64,000 nucleotides of DNA. It comes from Raja brachyura. Taxonomy: Eukaryota. The stretch spans positions 17,112,001 to 17,176,000 of the forward strand of contig OY740799.1 of NCBI GenBank assembly GCA_963514005.1, written 5' to 3'. Below, piece after piece: positions 9,801 through 64,000 of this stretch; position 1 is the stretch's first letter; each line of letters opens with the position of its first letter. Position numbers and translations under genes: made by a program. The notes under the pieces are model-generated. The model did no database searches. It was not told where the DNA came from and saw only the letters and a program-made list of their open reading frames with translations.

Positions 9801-10146
9801 CGATAGAGACTAGTTTAATCCGCTCTCTGTCCAGGAACTCCAGGGCCACCGAGACGTTCTCCAGCTTCATCTGACGGAAGTTGGGCCGCGAGTGGTACTT
9901 TCTGTACATCTTCTTCTGGCTGAGGACCTCGAGGAGCCCGATCAGCCTCAGGCCGTCGCCCAGGTCCTTCTGCAGGTCGCCGATGCGCTTGTTCATACAC
10001 TTGAGGTGCTCGTTGCACCAACGGGTGAAGGTGTTCTGCTGGATCTTCTTCCAGGGCGCGTCCTCTGCCAGGTCCTTCTCGGTTGCCGGCATCTCGCCGT
10101 CGTCCTGCCCGTTGGCGGCATGTCCTTGCTGATCCATGGAAGTCAT
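9801..10146 (-). CDS. FLNC: Filamin C, first coding exon (N-terminal CH1 of the actin-binding domain); gene continues beyond position 1
   Basis: Translates MTSMDQ...[32 protein letters not shown]...[29 protein letters not shown] then a phase-1 donor G|gtaggt at 9800. [11 protein letters not shown] is the filamin-C form (FLNA/FLNB have RPTFRQMQLEN). The CCDC136-like upstream neighbour matches known CCDC136-FLNC synteny. Confidence 0.93.
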
Positions 10147-10149
10147 GGC

Positions 10150-10660
10150 CGGGATGTGGCGCTAAAACTTTGCTCAAACTTTGCGGGGTCGGTGCACAAG
10201 CCGTGAGTGAGTGAGTGAGTGAGTGAGTGAGTCCGCGTTTGCCTCTGCCGATTCTGGGCGCTGCCCTACACCAAGTGTCCACTCCGCCCGAAGGCTGTTC
10301 TCCTCGGCTCCCTCTCGCCGAATGATCGCGTTCCCAGCCCAGCCGCACTTTTTAATCAGTGACGGCTGCTCCGAGTTCACGTCAGAGCCCAGGATCGCCA
10401 GGAATCCCGAGGCCATGTCCATATAAACCCCGCACCGAATCAAGTGTTCGCGGCCCGCGGCGACCGCCCCTCCCCGCCCCCGGGGCTAATCATAGCCACC
10501 CGCTCATTGCGCAGCGCCGCTCACTCCAACCTTATTTTTAGAACAGCAAACACTCGAGGGCACGAATGGGTTAATCAAGTTCCTGCCTGTGTGTTCATAG
10601 ATGAACTTTCCAGTAAAGGGGGAGGGGGAGAGGGGGCTGTCTTGGGCCCTCCCAATTTAT
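10150..10660 (-). promoter_or_regulatory. GC/CpG-rich FLNC promoter and 5'UTR
   Basis: CpG-rich island just upstream of the ATG; GC box ccccgcccc at 10472-10480; CRE-like TGACGTG on minus at ~10378-10384; MEF2 site CTAAAAATAA on minus at 10532-10541; AT-rich TTAAAAA near 10350; (GTGA)7 microsatellite at 10203-10232. Confidence 0.7.
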
Positions 10661-27074: not shown

Positions 27075-28100
<1,026 letters not shown>

Positions 28101-34425: not shown

Positions 34426-34560
34426 CTGACAAGGCACCCCTTTCAGTTTGTGGACTTCCTCCTTGAATTGCCTGAGCTGTAACTCCAGCTGGCTGCGCTC
34501 CTCTTGGCTGTTCCTGTATCTTTCCTCGAGTGCTCTCAAATCAGTGATTAATCCTTCGCA
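34426..34560 (-). CDS. CCDC136: CCDC136-like exon (CEGLITDLRALEERYRNSQEERSQLELQLRQFKEEVHKLKGVPCQ)
   Basis: 135 nt, tgtgtgcccag| ... CAG|gtaagt, phase 0/0; coiled coil. Confidence 0.88.
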
Positions 34561-36190: not shown

Positions 36191-36629
36191 CTCATGCTGC
36201 ACTGTCAGTGCTTTCTCTTCTGCCTTTAGCAGTCGATGTTTTAAATCTAATTCTTCAAACTGTCCTTTCTCTTCTGCCCTCTGGAGTGCTCTAGGAATGA
36301 GCTCGGGGCTTTTTATCTTCTGGGCAGATGTGGTACCATCACCCGTGCTTCCATCCTCAAGTCCTCTAACCTGCCGCCCATCTTCAAGCTGCTCTCTTGC
36401 AGAAGCTCGGCCGCTTGCAGCTATTTTATCAGCCGACTTCTCCTGGCATTTCCTCAGCTCCTCCTTCTGAGGGAGCTTCAGTTCCTCCTGGCATTTTAGT
36501 CCTGTCTCTTTGAGTTCGTGGCCATTTAGTTTTCTGGATTGTTTCTCAGACAATATCTCAGCCTTTGCACCCTGCTGCTGACAATGGCTTTCAGACCCTG
36601 GAGTGTCCACTTTAAATCCGTCAACTGAT
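36191..36629 (-). CDS. CCDC136: CCDC136-like exon (SVDGFKVDTPGSES...LDLKHRLLKAEEKALTVQHE)
   Basis: 439 nt, ttttccttttag| ... GAG|gtaatg, phase 2/0; the end resembles SLMAP DLKTLLSKAENQAKDVQKE. Confidence 0.85.
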
Positions 36630-40061: not shown

Positions 40062-40179
40062 CTGCAATACTGCCGTTCCATTTGTTGCAGTCTTTCCCTC
40101 AGCTGTTTGTTATCATTCTGCAGAACTCGACATTCTTGAGCCAGATTTCGACACTCAACCTGCAGGCACTGTACTGCAC
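40062..40179 (-). CDS. CCDC136: CCDC136-like exon (GAVQCLQVECRNLAQECRVLQNDNKQLRERLQQMERQYCR)
   Basis: 118 nt, taacag| ... AG|gtagga, phase 1/2 bridges both neighbours; heptad pattern. Confidence 0.85.
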
Positions 40180-44174: not shown

Positions 44175-44495
44175 CCTGGAGCTGAGTAACCTCTTCGGAG
44201 TTTTTCTTCTGTCGACTGTCACTTTTCATCTGTATCTCTGCTCGGAGTGTGGTGATCTCCAGCTCATACTCCACTGTTGTCTGCTGAAGGTGTTCCAGCT
44301 CTGCCCGAATACGACATAGCTCCTCCTGCAACGTTGCAATCTCATTTTCCCGTTCTCCCGCTGCCTCCTCGGCTGCCTGACGTAGATTCACAATCTCCTC
44401 CTGTGCGCAGTGAAGTTCCTCATGTGCTTCTGTCAGCTCACTCTCCTTCTCTTCCTCCAAGCTCTCAATCTCCTCCTGGACGGACCGAAGCTGCA
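44175..44495 (-). CDS. CCDC136: CCDC136-like coiled-coil exon (VQLRSVQEEIESLEEEKESEL...EEVTQLQ)
   Basis: 321 nt, tgtcctattcag| ... G|gtatga, phase 1/1; matches CCDC136 [20 protein letters not shown]...LRQAAED...IASLQEDLCR...YEMEIASLRAE. Confidence 0.92.
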
Positions 44496-48820: not shown

Positions 48821-48895
48821 CTTGGAGACGCTGGATCTGTTTGGCAAAGTTTTCAGTCTGTTGCACATTGACCAATCGTTGTTCCTCCAGCAATC
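48821..48895 (-). CDS. CCDC136: CCDC136-like exon (RLLEEQRLVNVQQTENFAKQIQRLQ)
   Basis: 75 nt, actgcag| ... G|gtgagt, phase 1/1; matches CCDC136 [25 protein letters not shown]. Confidence 0.9.
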
Positions 48896-50023: not shown

Positions 50024-51973
50024 TTTGTAAGTCCAAATAGCTCCTCTGGTGCCGGGCTGCTTGTTCCCGAGACTCCTCCAATTCCTTCCGTAGCTGCTTA
50101 ATCTGCAACCTCAATTCATCCAATTCCAACATACAAAGCACATTGTTGCACGATTTAGGACTAGATGACCTCATGCTACATATTTCTGGTTTGCTTAATA
50201 GTTGGTCGTAAGACTTATGGAAACGTGCCATCATATCACAAAGTTCTAGATTAGCTGATATCACTGTAGATACTTTAGGATCAGTTGAGTTGATCTCAGC
50301 TGTTTTGGTAACAGATAACGCATCCTCACCTGGTTTAGGAATAGCTAACATGATCCCAGGAACCTTAGGAGCAATGCATCTAATGTCAGATGTCTTGGGA
50401 GCAGCTGACTTGATCTCGGAAGATTTGGGATCAGCTGCTTTGGTCTCAGACATGTTGAATACAGCGGACTTGATCTCAGAAACTTTGGAAGAAGCTGGCG
50501 TGACCTTGGAAAGTTCGGGATCAGTTGTTTTGGTCTCAGATATGTTAAGTGCAGATAACTTGACGTCAGATGCCTTGGGAGCAGCTGAATTGACCTCATA
50601 TTCCTGGGAAGCAACTGACTTAACTTCTGCCTCATTGGGACCATCGGATTTGATTTTGTAATCAGTCGGCATGACTGACGTTATCTTAAAATCATTGAGA
50701 GCAGATAATGGGACCTCAAAAGGCTTGGGATCAGCTGCCTTGGTCACTGACCCATTAGAAGCCGTTGACTTGATCTCAGACAACTTGGTAGTGCTAGACT
50801 TGACCTCAGAAAGTTTGGAATCAGTAGATGTGACTTCAGATGGTTTGAGATCAGTTGACTTCACTTCAACCATCTTGGGGCCAGCCGACAATACCGTGGA
50901 TTGGTTAGGATCTATTAACCCTATTGTAGATGGTTTGAGAGGTGTTGATCTAACCTCAGATTGTTTAAGATCAACTGACGTGACCCTAGATGGTTTGGGA
51001 TCAGATAACTGAACTTCTGTTTGTCTGAGATCAACTGGTTTCACCATGGATTGTTCGAAATATGTTGGGCTGAATTCAGGCACAGATGAATCAGTTGGTT
51101 TGACCTCAGCTGGGATGAGATCAGCAGACTTGAATTCAGGCATTTTAAGATCAATTGACTTGGCGTTGTATGGTTTGGAATGTGTTGATTCAATTTCCAC
51201 TAATTTAGGATCAGCTGACTTAACTTCTGACTGTTTAGCATCAATTGCCTTGGCCTCAGATGATGTAGAATGAGTTGTCTTGATTTCAGATGGTTTGCAA
51301 TCTGCTAATTTGACTCCTGACACTTCAGAATCAATCATCTTGGCATCAAATGGTTTGGGAAAAACTGTTTTGATCTCGGGTGGTTTGGAATCTGCTAATT
51401 TGACCTCTGACACTTTAGGATCAATTGTCTTAATCTCAGATGCCTTGTGTTCAGCTAATTTGACCTCTATCACTTTGGGATCAATTGTCTTGATATCAGA
51501 TGATTTAGAACACTCATTTTCAGATGGTTTGAAATCAATTAATTTGATCTCTGAGGCATTAGAATCAACTGCCTTGATGTCAGGTGATTTAGGGCATGTT
51601 GAATTGATTTCAGATGGTTTGGGATTATCTGATTTGATCTCTGATATCATCTTAACCTCACATGGATTGGAATATGTTGACTTGACCTCAGAAGATGTGT
51701 GAACAATTGACCCGACCTCAGATGTCTCAGAATTAGTTGACATGACCATGGTTGGTGTGAGATCAGGTAATTTGACATCAGTTGACTTGGAATCAGGTGA
51801 ACTGATCTCAGGAGCCTTGAGATTCATTGAATTTACCTCCGATATTTTGAATGCTTCTGATTTCACCTCACAGATTGGAATATCAGGTGGCTTCATATTT
51901 GACTCTGGATCTCCTGAAGATGAGACATTTGTCGTTGATTCATTTGCCTTGTTGTCTGCAGACAGCACATCAC
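50024..51973 (-). CDS. CCDC136: CCDC136-like giant exon (1950 nt): ~55 decapeptide repeats followed by the first conserved coiled coil (ELDELRLQIKQLRKELEESREQAARHQRSYLDLQ)
   Basis: 659-codon ORF; acceptor tttgttttacatag| at 51974-51975, donor A|gtaagt at 50022-50023, phase 1/1. Its C-terminal end matches CCDC136 [34 protein letters not shown] (from memory). Confidence 0.88.
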
Positions 51974-58096: not shown

Positions 58097-58156
58097 CACT
58101 CATATCTCGGACAATCGCTTGTTGTCGCAGCACCTTCACCTCTGGGGGACCTCTCT
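58097..58156 (-). CDS. CCDC136: CCDC136-like 60-nt microexon B (ERGPPEVKVLRQQAIVRDMS)
   Basis: atgttttag| ... G|gtgagt, phase 1/1, open; same length as microexon A and shares the LRxQAxxRDMS motif. Confidence 0.72.
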
Positions 58157-58764: not shown

Positions 58765-58824
58765 CGCTCATGTCTCTGATCATGGCTTGTTTACGGAGAA
58801 TCTTCGATTCCTGGAGTCTTTTTT
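58765..58824 (-). CDS. CCDC136: CCDC136-like 60-nt microexon A (EKRLQESKILRKQAMIRDMS)
   Basis: ttgtctgttacag| ... G|gtaaca, phase 1/1, open; paralogous to the exon at 58097-58156. Confidence 0.7.
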
Positions 58825-59337: not shown

Positions 59338-59614
59338 CTTTCCGTAGAGTTGGTCTTCGACGTTTCCTGTTCAACCCATCCTCCACATCATTGTCAGGTG
59401 AAGCCATTTCTTTTCCTTCTGGAATCTCCTCGCCATCTTTATTATCTCCTTCTGTGTTTCCTGTCTTTACCTCCATTAGCTTCTCCGGGTCGGTTTTACT
59501 GTTCAGCTCCTGCACCTTTACATCCATGTTTTTGTGATTAGTCTTGAGATCCAAATCTGATCGGAATGATCCCCTGTACTTCAATGTCAGATTTGCACAC
59601 TCAGCCTGAGTGTC
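59338..59614 (-). CDS. CCDC136: CCDC136-like exon (DTQAECANLTLKYRGSFRSD...GLNRKRRRPTLRK)
   Basis: Acceptor ccttcctctgcag|, donor AAG|gtagga, open frame (overlaps ORF 59276-59584), phase 0/1 fits both neighbours; charged, disordered composition. Confidence 0.72.
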
Positions 59615-61015: not shown

Positions 61016-61619
61016 AAGTATATAATAGTATACTCGCTGGATATGAATCAGAATGATGCTGTTTCTCTCAGGAACATGAGCACCAGAAGATTCATTGTAG
61101 CGCACCAAGGACGGCTGGCCATTCAGCTTGAGCATTCAATCTCCAGCTGGGTGAGGCCAATATAGCCAAACAAAGAGACGGGGATTCACCAGCTTCCATC
61201 ATGTCCAATGGAAGGTGATGGGAATGACTATAAACTCTGGGTTAATGCAAGGAACAGCGATGGTCCATGCTCATCATGCCAACCATGGAGCAGCAGCGAG
61301 CCCTGTGTCTCTGCAACAATAGGTGGTCCTGCTTGCCGTGACCCACCCATCAAAACTCTCACAAACAGGCTCTCCATACCAAGGAGGTCAGCTTCCTGGA
61401 AGCAGGGAGGCCTGGGGCTCACACCAGGTTTCAGGTGCAGCCGCTGAGTAGTTGTCTTTGTTTAGTGTGCAGAGAAGTACATACCCATGTGTGTCTGGAT
61501 CGGAGGACTAGCACACTCTAGTGGTTTGCGGAGTACCGTTAATGGAGAGCCAGTATTTGTTGGATACACCAGCTATAGGGGACCAGGGCACAGTACTATA
61601 GAGAAGAAGAGGTTTGTAC

Positions 61620-61715
61620 CTGCCAGACATTGTCAGAGAGGACCTGTGTGTTGGTCAGTAAATACTGCAGCGTCTCCAACTTCTGTTCCAGGAGCTGCTC
61701 ACGCTGCAAAGCCTC
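61620..61715 (-). CDS. CCDC136: CCDC136/SLMAP-family gene exon: SLMAP/TRAF3IP3-like N-terminal coiled coil (EALQREQLLEQKLETLQYLLTNTQVLSDNVWQ)
   Basis: 96 nt, strong acceptor ttctgttttctgttgcag| and donor CAG|gtacaa, phase 0/0. Closely resembles SLMAP EALHREQMLEQKLATLQRLLAITQEASDTSWQ as I recall it. Linkage to the downstream exons is inferred from phase only. Confidence 0.8.
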
Positions 61716-61854
61716 CTGCAACAGAAAACAGAAGACATTGACGTACCTGTGCTGCAATCTGTACAAATGGTAAAGGACATTAGGCCATCATGACTTTATT
61801 ACACGCAATCATTATCACAGACCTATGAAAACCCAAGCAACACAAACATATTGT

Positions 61855-64000
61855 ATCAAATTATAGACCTGTGTCTTTGCTCAATTTTGTAAAATATTTG
61901 AAAAGCTATTTGTGAATAGACTTGATGACTTCATTGAGAAATATGAGTTATTGAGTGATCATCAATATGGGTTTAGTAGCAATGTTACAAAATTTTGAGA
62001 TTTTAAAAATCAAGTCTGCAATTTATCCCATCAGATAAAGCATAAAAATAATTTGACACCCAATTCACTTTCATATTTTCAGTATTAAGAAAATTATGAC
62101 CATTTTCATGCTCGGAAATTAGCATCTTCTTCCCCATTGCCTTTCAATTGACTTAACTCAAAAGCTGTGATCTAGAACCGTTAAAAGCCCATAACTTTCT
62201 TAAACATTAAGAGAACTCAATGAAATTTCCAGTTATTATAGATTGAAGCATTCTGAAGCAAATATGAAACAATCTTACTTGGATGACCTGAAATTAAAGC
62301 ATATAATTAGTTAGTTATCCAATTGTAGCTAATTACAAAATTCAATGAGTAGATCTAAACATCTATCCATTTCTTAAGAAAAGATAAACTTTTTTTAAAT
62401 TGTCTAAGTGTCCAAATAACATTCACACAATAATCCACAATATAACATAATTTTTAAATCTCATTTTCATGAATTTCTGGGCCAAATGGAAGGAATTTTG
62501 TGTTGAATGCCTGTAAATGAATGGCCATTTAAATCAACTAGCGAGTGGGTTTTAGTGGAATGTGGTGGATTGGAACGTTGTGCTTTGCTGTGAAGTCGGT
62601 ATGAAAAATACAGCTGGTTCATACATTTTTTTTGGACCCCATTTCGCAACATGAAAATATTATTAAAGCCTCCATAAAAACCAACTTTTAATATAAAAAT
62701 AAACTGTGTCCCTTTTTTTCTCCCCTACGCAAAATCCTTCCCGTTATCGGCACTCACGGCTTTTGAAGGTGATTTTTAAATTACTCTAGATAATAAATAA
62801 TCTAGCGTAATTTAAAAATACCTTCATTAATGAAATGTCGGAGCGATTTTTCTTCCGCAACAAAATCGCCCGACATTGATCGATTTGCCCAGTCTGAAGA
62901 AAAACGGCACTTTAAGCCTGCCCCCCTCTGAAAGGTGCCAAAGACGCGCACACGGGGAGCGGCAGAACTGCAGCGCTGCTCAAGGTAAGTTTTGTAACGT
63001 ACCTAGGTTTAGGAGTAATCGATCGACATCATTAGCGGTGATGGATTTTGTAGAAAATATAGCAACAGCAATAGATAAGAAACTACACACTGTGGGTGTA
63101 TTTATTGATTTACGTAAAGCATTTGATACAATTAATAATTCCTTACTTTTGCAGAAATTGGAACGTTATGGTATAAGAGGTGTCACACAAAATTGGTTGG
63201 GAAGTTAAAGTAATAGGTTTCAGTATGTAAAAATTAATAATACTGAATCACAGCTTAGAATAGTAACCTGTGGTGTTCCACAAGGTTCGGTACTGGGACC
63301 CAAGTTATTTATACTTTATTTAAATATTTGTAAAGTATCCAATACGTTTAATTTTTTTTAAGTTTGCGGATGATACAAATATATTTTGTTCAGGGAATGA
63401 TATAAAATAACTATTGAAAACAGCAGAAAGAGAATTGATAGTGCTAAAATAAATGGTTTGATATTAATAAATTATCCCTAAATGAAAATAAAACAAAATT
63501 TACGGTGTTTGGTGGTGACAGGGTTAATTGTGAAATAAAATTGAATGGAGTTGAAATTGAAAGAGTATATCAAACAAAATTCCTGGGAGTGAATATAGAT
63601 CATAAACTTTGTTAGAAGCCTGATATAGAATACATCAAACGGAAATTATCTACATCCATTGCTATTCTTTACAAAACAAAGGATCTGTTGAATAAGAAGT
63701 GTTTGTATATATTGCATTGCTCGCTGATAATGCCATATATGTCATATTGTGTTGAAGTTTGGGGAAATGTATACAAAACAAATATAGACCCTATAATTAA
63801 ACTCCAGAAAAGAGCTATTAGAATAATACATAAAGCTTTTAACCATGAAACTACAACTCCATTAGTCATAAAGTCCGGTACCTTAAAATGTTTGGATATT
63901 GTGCATGTAAAGACATTAGAAATACTTTTCCGAGTTAGGAATAAAATCCTTCCAGTTAGTATTTAAAAAAAAAATAAATTAAGAGAAGGACATTATAATT
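61855..64000 (+). mobile_element. AT-rich decayed LINE of the CR1/L2 group (Crack/Daphne-like), split by a DNA transposon
   Basis: YRPVSLL..KIFEK..QYGF|RSNRSTSLA...VFIDLRKAFDTI...GVPQGSVLGP...FADDT...YCVEVWGN, with stops and frameshifts; clade label is tentative. Confidence 0.82.
61977..63005. mobile_element. Non-autonomous TIR DNA transposon (hAT-like) with 7-bp TSD
   Basis: Left end tagcaatgttacaaaa, right end ttttgtaacgtaccta; ggtttag duplicated at 61970-61976 and 63006-63012; removing it restores the LINE codons QYGFRSNRS. Confidence 0.82.

What the first reader, a model, noticed from the sequence alone, without database searches (positions are those of the whole stretch)
61620..61715. 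FLNC-linked CCDC136 retains an SLMAP/TRAF3IP3-type N-terminal exon: a possible ancestral STRIPAK-adaptor form
Seen: a clean 96-nt exon, EALQREQLLEQKLETLQYLLTNTQVLSDNVWQ, in phase with the downstream exons. Known: this segment follows the FHA domain in SLMAP (EALHREQMLEQKLATLQ...SWQ), in the region that binds SIKE1/FGFR1OP2 in STRIPAK; SLMAP-FLNB and CCDC136-FLNC are paralogous gene pairs; the mammalian CCDC136 sequence I recall lacks this segment. The C-terminal exon chain here is also compact like SLMAP, without the long mammalian CCDC136 expansion. I could not find the next SLMAP exons (ALIDEDRLL..., NQTED...) between 61620 and 59614, so the module may be truncated. Inference: an intermediate ohnolog that could still contact STRIPAK or act as a decoy.
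Basis: partly seen in the sequence, partly recalled or inferred. Interest (0 to 1): 0.7.

Follow-up and report, generated by a model that had tools for sequence, protein, structure and literature searches.

The report
Shark CCDC136 keeps SIKE1-binding coil
In sharks and skates the gene CCDC136 still carries two ancestral exons for the coil by which its sister protein SLMAP docks onto a growth-control phosphatase complex; it lacks the kinase-catching domain, so it likely acts as a kinase-blind competitor for that docking site, though binding and the full-length transcript are untested.

Summary
The 96-nt exon (61715-61620, minus strand) is real. It is not alone: a 63-nt exon 5 kb upstream, past the window end, precedes it, and both match SLMAP exons in size and phase. 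Together they encode SLMAP residues 153-205, the first coil that binds SIKE1. 12 of the 13 interface residues named for the crystal structure are kept, including all four essential leucines. The pair is conserved in whale shark and catshark, and contigs of 4 of 4 RNA-like runs from other species splice the two exons together. None of 120 best CCDC136 database hits carries it. The downstream gene is CCDC136 (tree 100/100; nesting in SLMAP rejected), and SLMAP and TRAF3IP3 sit on other contigs. No FHA exons were found, nor the SLMAP exons for residues 206-462. Novel exons, one of about 650 codons, replace them. All 12 coding exons join in one open frame of 1232 codons, but the splice into the giant exon is inferred. 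So this is a retained module in a derived, FHA-less protein, not an ancestral form. It is a new variant of a known kind: TRAF3IP3 has a similar layout.

The parts
61716..64000 (-). Window part of the intron between exon A and exon B. Three exons of the gene lie beyond the window end (extended coordinates = window + onward count). Exon A, 66874-66812 (G000:C19:17178812-17178874), 63 nt, phase 0/0, homolog of the 63-nt SLMAP exon for residues 153-173, codon 6 the likely start Met. Optional exon U2, 72668-72624, 45 nt, phase 0/0, open. Leader exon U1, with a GC donor after 75613 (in frame, five-codon start) or a GT donor after 75609 (in-frame stop two codons before the junction); its 5' limit was not determined.
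   Evidence: Exon A; spliced to exon B in 4 of 4 runs. U1 and U2: loose ends of X3 (28 of 30) and X4 (29 of 30) mapped; context
61620..61715 (-). Exon B, the finding: 96 nt, phase 0/0, SLMAP residues 174-205, carrying the four leucines essential for SIKE1 binding
59338..59614 (-). Exon C, 277 nt, phase 0/1, no detectable SLMAP homology; 51 of 92 residues identical in whale shark; ends in a basic run
58765..58824 (-). Exon D, 60 nt, phase 1/1; 20 of 20 residues identical in whale shark
   Evidence: (X1 record 6 joins C to D)
58097..58156 (-). Exon E, 60 nt, phase 1/1, tandem relative of exon D; 17 of 20 identical in whale shark
50024..51973 (-). Exon F, 1950 nt predicted, phase 1/1, Ser/Lys/Glu/Pro-rich degenerate repeats ending in the first CCDC136 coil; the 5' boundary is inferred from the open frame and an AG
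   Evidence: 3' end joined to G and H in contigs
48821..48895 (-). Exon G, 75 nt, same size and phase as its SLMAP counterpart
44175..44495 (-). Exon H, 321 nt, CCDC136 core coil, same size as its SLMAP counterpart
40062..40179 (-). Exon I, 118 nt, same size as its SLMAP counterpart
36191..36629 (-). Exon J, 439 nt
34426..34560 (-). Exon K, 135 nt, last coil
27075..27179 (-). Exon L, C-terminal transmembrane tail and stop codon
   Evidence: 64-67% identical to the lungfish and gar CCDC136 tails
9802..10161 (-). Open frame holding the first coding exon of the downstream filamin (taken as FLNC); synteny marker only

Best explanation
This is the elasmobranch CCDC136 gene, an old duplicate sister of SLMAP, which keeps the two exons for SLMAP's first coil but has no detectable FHA exons, and likely makes one tail-anchored protein predicted to bind SIKE1/FGFR1OP2 without being able to recruit MST kinases. 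Shown: exon identity, size and phase; CCDC136 orthology of the core; conservation across skate and two sharks; splices U1/U2-A-B-C-D and F(3')-G-H in contigs of related species; no detectable FHA or middle-coil exons. Inferred: origin by whole-genome duplication; start at the Met in exon A or five codons into U1; the D-E and E-F splices and so a protein of about 1230 aa; a 2:2 four-helix bundle with SIKE1 as in PDB 6AKM; loading onto striatin through SIKE1. The likely result is a membrane-tethered STRIPAK arm that competes with SLMAP for SIKE1/FGFR1OP2 and can stabilise or relocate them, working as TRAF3IP3 does. Bony vertebrates would have lost this long form and kept only the short C-terminal form, which resembles SLMAP1/2.
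For: Exon sizes 63, 96, 75, 321 and 118 nt are identical between this gene and SLMAP on C16, in the same order, each gene upstream of a filamin on the same strand. Fourfold-degenerate sites against SLMAP differ at 11 of 11, so the copy is old. Core tree: CCDC136 versus SLMAP 100/100, nesting with shark SLMAP rejected at p-AU 5e-9 (14 of 21 rows, after dropping 7 long-branch or outgroup rows). The module is 44 of 48 identical to whale shark P0123 against 51 of 92 for exon C, and 48 of 53 to catshark P0243. 12 of 13 named interface residues are kept (13 of 13 in both sharks), including L182, L186, L189 and L193. Predicted 2:2 complex of the catshark module with this genome's SIKE-family coil: score 0.85, best of 3 controls 0.05, runs agree in at least 89% of contacts, partner pLDDT at least 80. 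The mark was reached by 51 of 78 solved and 2 of 108 mismatched pairs (eukaryotes: 39 of 65 and 2 of 126). A like complex is solved, so this shows likeness, not binding. All 12 coding exons give one open frame of 1232 codons with AG/GT at every junction. Contigs join A to B in 4 of 4 runs from 2 studies, B to C in X3 and C to D in X1.
Against: The whale shark model P0123 stops 23 residues after exon E, and a whale shark core is a separate model from another source, P0003. No protein listed or 44 holds this gene's module together with its core. The minimal SIKE1-binding piece of SLMAP was 167-226, and residues 206-226 have no homolog here. The module has a long stem branch and its place in the tree is unresolved. 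The contigs come from other species, their RNA label is a guess (X3 is flagged probably DNA), and contigs do not prove a single transcript. The folded partner was the catshark copy and the SIKE chain only residues 2-45.
Confidence: 0.55

Rival explanations
1. Split locus: exons A-E form their own short transcript, giving a soluble protein of about 200 aa that binds and sequesters SIKE1/FGFR1OP2. The membrane-anchored core starts from an internal promoter at or in exon F, as SLMAP1/2 and bony-vertebrate CCDC136 would.
For: The NCBI whale shark model P0123 covers A-E plus a short tail. No listed database hit has both halves. Six AATAAA hexamers lie in the 6.1-kb E-F intron (not tested against chance).
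Against: The whale shark tail has no match in this locus. The donor of E and the acceptor of F are both phase 1 and give an open frame, a 1-in-3 chance on its own. SLMAP carries both halves in one gene in the same order. A fast-evolving repeat exon can break gene models (inference).
Confidence: 0.25
2. The module is kept only as a homodimerising coil, or for another partner, and no longer enters STRIPAK.
For: Long stem branch with fixed changes in all three elasmobranchs, for example at positions 166, 191, 199 and 202-203. Residues 206-226 are missing.
Against: The changes spare the named SIKE1 contacts, including the polar ones R178, K185, Q190, S200 and D201, which is not what loss of that partner would predict.
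Confidence: 0.14
3. The two exons were copied from SLMAP into the CCDC136 locus by exon shuffling or gene conversion in early cartilaginous fish, rather than retained from the duplication.
For: The module tree does not reject grouping with shark SLMAP (support 34/90). Bony-vertebrate CCDC136 hits lack the module.
Against: 11 of 11 fourfold sites differ from SLMAP, which excludes a recent copy. The exons sit in the ancestral position, order, strand and phase, so retention needs only one loss.
Confidence: 0.04
4. The gene is a second SLMAP rather than CCDC136.
For: NCBI names the whale shark fragment 'SLMAP-like'.
Against: The core is 54-82% identical to CCDC136 and 39-41% to the four gnathostome SLMAP rows of the tree; AU p=5e-9. 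A full SLMAP with FHA lies on C16.
Confidence: 0.02

Closest known systems
CCDC136 (NAG6) of bony vertebrates
   Same: Orthologous coiled-coil core and C-terminal membrane tail, next to a filamin. Named as an SLMAP paralogue in PMC11484480 (passages and introduction read).
   Different: 0 of the 120 best hits carry the SIKE1-binding coil. This copy adds exons A-E and a very long exon F.
SLMAP (SLMAP3), SIKE1-SLMAP arm of STRIPAK, PDB 6AKM
   Same: Residues 153-205 with 12 of 13 named contacts; five exons of identical size; tail anchor.
   Different: No FHA domain, which SLMAP needs to bind MST1/2. No homolog of residues 206-462.
TRAF3IP3 (T3JAM)
   Same: SLMAP paralogue with the same coil and a hydrophobic tail, whose coiled-coil region binds SIKE1 (PMC6323126 section 10; PMC10777921 passages). 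That it has no FHA is recalled and fits the two sequences read.
   Different: A different gene (C24 in this genome). It keeps the coil after residue 205, and only 13 of 32 residues of exon B are shared.
SLMAP1/SLMAP2 short isoforms
   Same: FHA-less, tail-anchored coils that do not recruit MST1/2.
   Different: They are isoforms of one gene. That they also lack the first coil is recalled, not checked.

Membership tests
CCDC136 | Core coil groups with CCDC136, apart from SLMAP | tested here: met
   100/100 split, AU p=5e-9; the tree with long branches was unresolved
CCDC136 | C-terminal transmembrane tail of CCDC136 type | tested here: met
   Exon L, E about 1e-11 to 1e-12 against three orthologs
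CCDC136 | Lies directly upstream of FLNC | tested here: inconclusive
   A filamin follows on the same strand and differs from the FLNB-like copy beside SLMAP; the label FLNC rests on a recalled motif and on exclusion
SLMAP (SLMAP3) | N-terminal FHA domain | tested here: not met
   No hit in 200 kb upstream by tblastn; profiles best iE 1.4 or worse against 8e-43 and 2e-35 at SLMAP; no C19 match among 21 Pfam FHA matches, a lower bound
SLMAP (SLMAP3) | First coil, residues 153-205 | tested here: met
   Exons A and B
SLMAP (SLMAP3) | Coil residues 206-462 | tested here: not met
   Five profiles found nothing here and all hit the SLMAP locus
TRAF3IP3 | Orthology | tested here: not met
   TRAF3IP3 is on C24; the module does not join the TRAF3IP3 clade
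SIKE1-binding STRIPAK arm | Interface residues L168, L172, A175, L182, L186, L189, L193, Q173, R178, K185, Q190, S200, D201 | tested here: met
   12 of 13 here (Q173K, as in coelacanth TRAF3IP3), 13 of 13 in both sharks
SIKE1-binding STRIPAK arm | Forms a 2:2 bundle with SIKE1 | tested here: inconclusive
   Predicted 0.85 against best control 0.05, but a like complex is solved
SIKE1-binding STRIPAK arm | Binding and loading onto striatin in cells | not testable with these tools
   Needs pulldown or co-IP

The most novel reading that the evidence does not exclude
Sharks and skates have a third STRIPAK arm that bony vertebrates lost: a tail-anchored CCDC136 that takes SIKE1/FGFR1OP2 away from SLMAP and so acts as a natural dominant-negative of MST1/2 recruitment. 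In place of the FHA domain it carries two tandem, highly conserved 20-residue exons with kinase-pseudosubstrate-like basic motifs that may dock a different kinase.
Probability: 0.15. Interest if true: 0.7.

Novelty: new variant of a known kind. Interest (0 to 1): 0.42.

Why it matters
It shows how the SLMAP/TRAF3IP3/CCDC136 trio was pared down after duplication. CCDC136 lost the FHA domain and middle coil but kept the SIKE1 dock in elasmobranchs, and seems to have lost the dock too in bony vertebrates. It gives a natural FHA-less competitor with which to test how SIKE1 occupancy tunes STRIPAK and Hippo signalling. It also points to fragmented shark gene models: one labelled 'SLMAP-like' is really the 5' half of the CCDC136 locus. 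The interest is limited because an FHA-less SIKE1-binding paralog (TRAF3IP3) is already known and retention of ancestral exons in slow-evolving cartilaginous fish is expected.

Tried and rejected
No run listed is on record as RNA; five were guessed to be RNA and held 6-8% of the words. No listed contig joined exon E to exon F, or D to E as a separate piece. That table was cut (6646 pieces not shown) and repeats dominated it, so this says nothing either way. The 5' piece of run X1 had no match in the 264 kb searched (best 21 of 30). FHA and middle-coil searches were negative with working controls. The core tree with cyclostome and invertebrate rows was unresolved, so it was rebuilt with 14 of 21 rows. 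The module-only tree cannot place the module. Pfam gave no family for exon B or P0123. No second alternative transmembrane exon was found. Earlier scan notes: none. A recent copy from SLMAP was rejected. The literature searches CCDC136+SLMAP (5 papers), CCDC136+STRIPAK (1 paper) and three-of-four-term searches listed no paper on this module. The shark search listed 8 of 2,342 papers, none containing ccdc136. The library lacks most subscription journals, and no supplements were read.

Full report
OBSERVATION. The window is G000:C19:17112001-17176000 of a 2.7-Gb genome. Its SLMAP exons mostly match a skate protein at 83-100% in tblastn pieces, so the animal is a skate-like elasmobranch. The 96-nt exon at 61715-61620 (minus strand) is real, with AG/GT ends and phase 0/0. 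It matches the SLMAP chain of the SIKE1-SLMAP crystal, PDB 6AKM (E=1.2e-6). The only other match in the genome search is the SLMAP exon on C16 (72%).

GENE ANATOMY. A whale shark protein annotated 'SLMAP-like' (P0123, 203 aa) maps to five exons: A (66874-66812 in extended coordinates, past the window end), B (the finding), C (59614-59338), D (58824-58765) and E (58156-58097). Exon A is 63 nt, phase 0/0, like the SLMAP exon for residues 153-173. Downstream come a 1950-nt low-complexity exon F and exons G-L, which are CCDC136 by search. Joined by script, A-L give 1232 codons with no internal stop and AG/GT at every junction. Exons A, B, G, H and I have the same sizes as their SLMAP counterparts: 63, 96, 75, 321 and 118 nt. 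A filamin follows each gene on the same strand. Calling the window's copy FLNC rests on a recalled motif and on its difference from the copy beside SLMAP. SCO2 (plus strand, about 101-102 kb in extended coordinates) and NCAPH2 lie upstream and bound the 5' search.

WHICH PARALOG. On the core coil the gene groups with CCDC136 against SLMAP at 100/100, and nesting with shark SLMAP is rejected (p-AU 5e-9). That tree used 14 of 21 rows; with the cyclostome, invertebrate and one divergent teleost rows it was unresolved. SLMAP with its FHA exons is on C16 and TRAF3IP3 on C24, so all three paralogs are present. Against SLMAP, 11 of 11 fourfold-degenerate sites in exons A and B differ, so this is no recent copy. 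The module-only tree unites skate, whale shark and catshark at 100/100 on a stem of 1.08 but cannot place them.

WHAT IS MISSING. tblastn with three shark or skate SLMAP proteins found no FHA exon in the window plus 200 kb upstream (part of that output was cut). Profiles for SLMAP residues 1-152 and 206-462 found nothing in extended 26-150 kb, while each hit the SLMAP locus (the profile for residues 116-152 hit only its first exon there). The Pfam FHA scan of the genome gave 21 matches, none on C19, but that count is a lower bound.

TRANSCRIPTION. Contigs of runs from two other organisms (2 studies; RNA is the tool's guess, and X3 is flagged probably DNA) skip the introns at the exon ends. A joins B in 4 of 4 runs. 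B joins C in X3, C joins D in X1, and the 3' end of F joins G and H in X3; X4 has one contig on F and H. Upstream of A the runs carry three different pieces. Two map to this genome: exon U1 (28 of 30 letters at 75610) and a 45-nt exon U2 (29 of 30 at 72627). U1 is used with two donors 4 nt apart (X2 and X3). One gives an in-frame five-codon start; the other puts a stop two codons before exon A. This fits a mostly non-coding leader and a start at or near the Met in exon A (inference). The D-E and E-F splices are inferred from phase.

DISTRIBUTION. The module is 44 of 48 identical to whale shark and 48 of 53 to a catshark model (P0243), against 51 of 92 for exon C. None of the 120 best CCDC136 hits (of 394; mostly bony fish, amphibians and lungfish; 90 of the 118 measurable have at least 100 residues before the core exon) matches a broad module profile (best iE 0.25). 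The whale shark core and chimaera rows among them look like partial models, and mammals were not in the list; that mammals lack the module is recalled. Of the 150 best of 250 representatives, 1 was closest to this module, 140 to SLMAP and 9 to TRAF3IP3. These are annotated proteins, so unannotated exons in bony vertebrates are not excluded.

MECHANISM. Tang et al. (PMC6323126; abstract and sections 10 and 11 read) show that SLMAP reaches striatin only through SIKE1. They find that residues 167-226 suffice, and that L182, L186, L189 and L193 are essential in a 2:2 four-helix bundle. This copy keeps 12 of the 13 named SLMAP contacts; the exception, Q173K, also occurs in coelacanth TRAF3IP3, and both sharks keep 13 of 13. 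A predicted 2:2 complex of the catshark module with residues 2-45 of this genome's C24 SIKE-family protein ('SIKE1-like' is by recall) scored 0.85 against a best control of 0.05. The runs agreed in at least 89% of contacts and partner pLDDT was at least 80. The mark was reached by 51 of 78 solved and 2 of 108 mismatched pairs. Since 6AKM is solved, this shows likeness only. Without FHA the protein would not recruit MST1/2 (PMC11484480 introduction). The most likely working is therefore a membrane-tethered, kinase-blind STRIPAK arm that competes with SLMAP for SIKE1/FGFR1OP2 (confidence 0.55). The main rival is a split locus making a soluble 200-aa decoy (0.25), as the whale shark model suggests. 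Against binding: residues 206-226 have no homolog here.

COMPARISON AND NOVELTY. It is a member of CCDC136 that likely works like TRAF3IP3, an SLMAP paralog already shown to bind SIKE1. It is not an SLMAP (FHA and middle coil not met). The paralogy of CCDC136 to SLMAP is in print. The searches listed nothing on a retained first coil in CCDC136; for papers other than the three opened I saw only listings and abstract starts. Verdict: real, conserved and apparently undescribed, but an expected kind of lineage-specific retention. New variant of a known kind, interest 0.42.

Noticed in passing
window 58765-58824 and 58097-58156 (-): Two tandem 60-nt exons, 20 of 20 and 17 of 20 identical in whale shark, each with an Arg-x-Gln-Ala-hydrophobic pattern, preceded by a basic run at the end of exon C. 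This resembles pseudosubstrate and phosphosite motifs of basophilic kinases (recalled, untested). No homolog was found.
   Followed up: partly
window 61619-61717: Exon B differs by only 1, 1 and 2 letters of 99 in runs X1, X3 and X4, while exon H differs by 30 and 36 of 323 in X3 and X4. This hints at constraint on synonymous sites, but the runs were found through exon B words, so the comparison is biased.
   Followed up: no
window 50024-51973 (-): A 650-codon Ser/Lys/Glu/Pro-rich degenerate-repeat exon. The chimaera and lungfish CCDC136 hits also have repeat-rich or acidic stretches at this position.
   Followed up: partly
G000:C19:17187609-17187613 (extended window 75609-75613): Leader exon U1 uses a GC donor or a GT donor 4 nt apart. 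The GT form turns the five-codon start into a short upstream ORF ending 4 nt before the main Met (read).
   Followed up: partly
L006:6860-8116 (+) and L011:5542-6009 (-): SCO2-like and NCAPH2-like genes lie upstream of CCDC136, where mammals have CALU and OPN1SW (recalled).
   Followed up: no
Database searches: SLMAP isoforms of many named sharks and rays were returned, but no full-length elasmobranch CCDC136 among the listed hits of up to 2000 aa. The gene may be poorly annotated in this group.
   Followed up: no
G000:C16:52222572-52222689 (-): The 118-nt SLMAP exon homologous to exon I appears to end at a GC donor.
   Followed up: no
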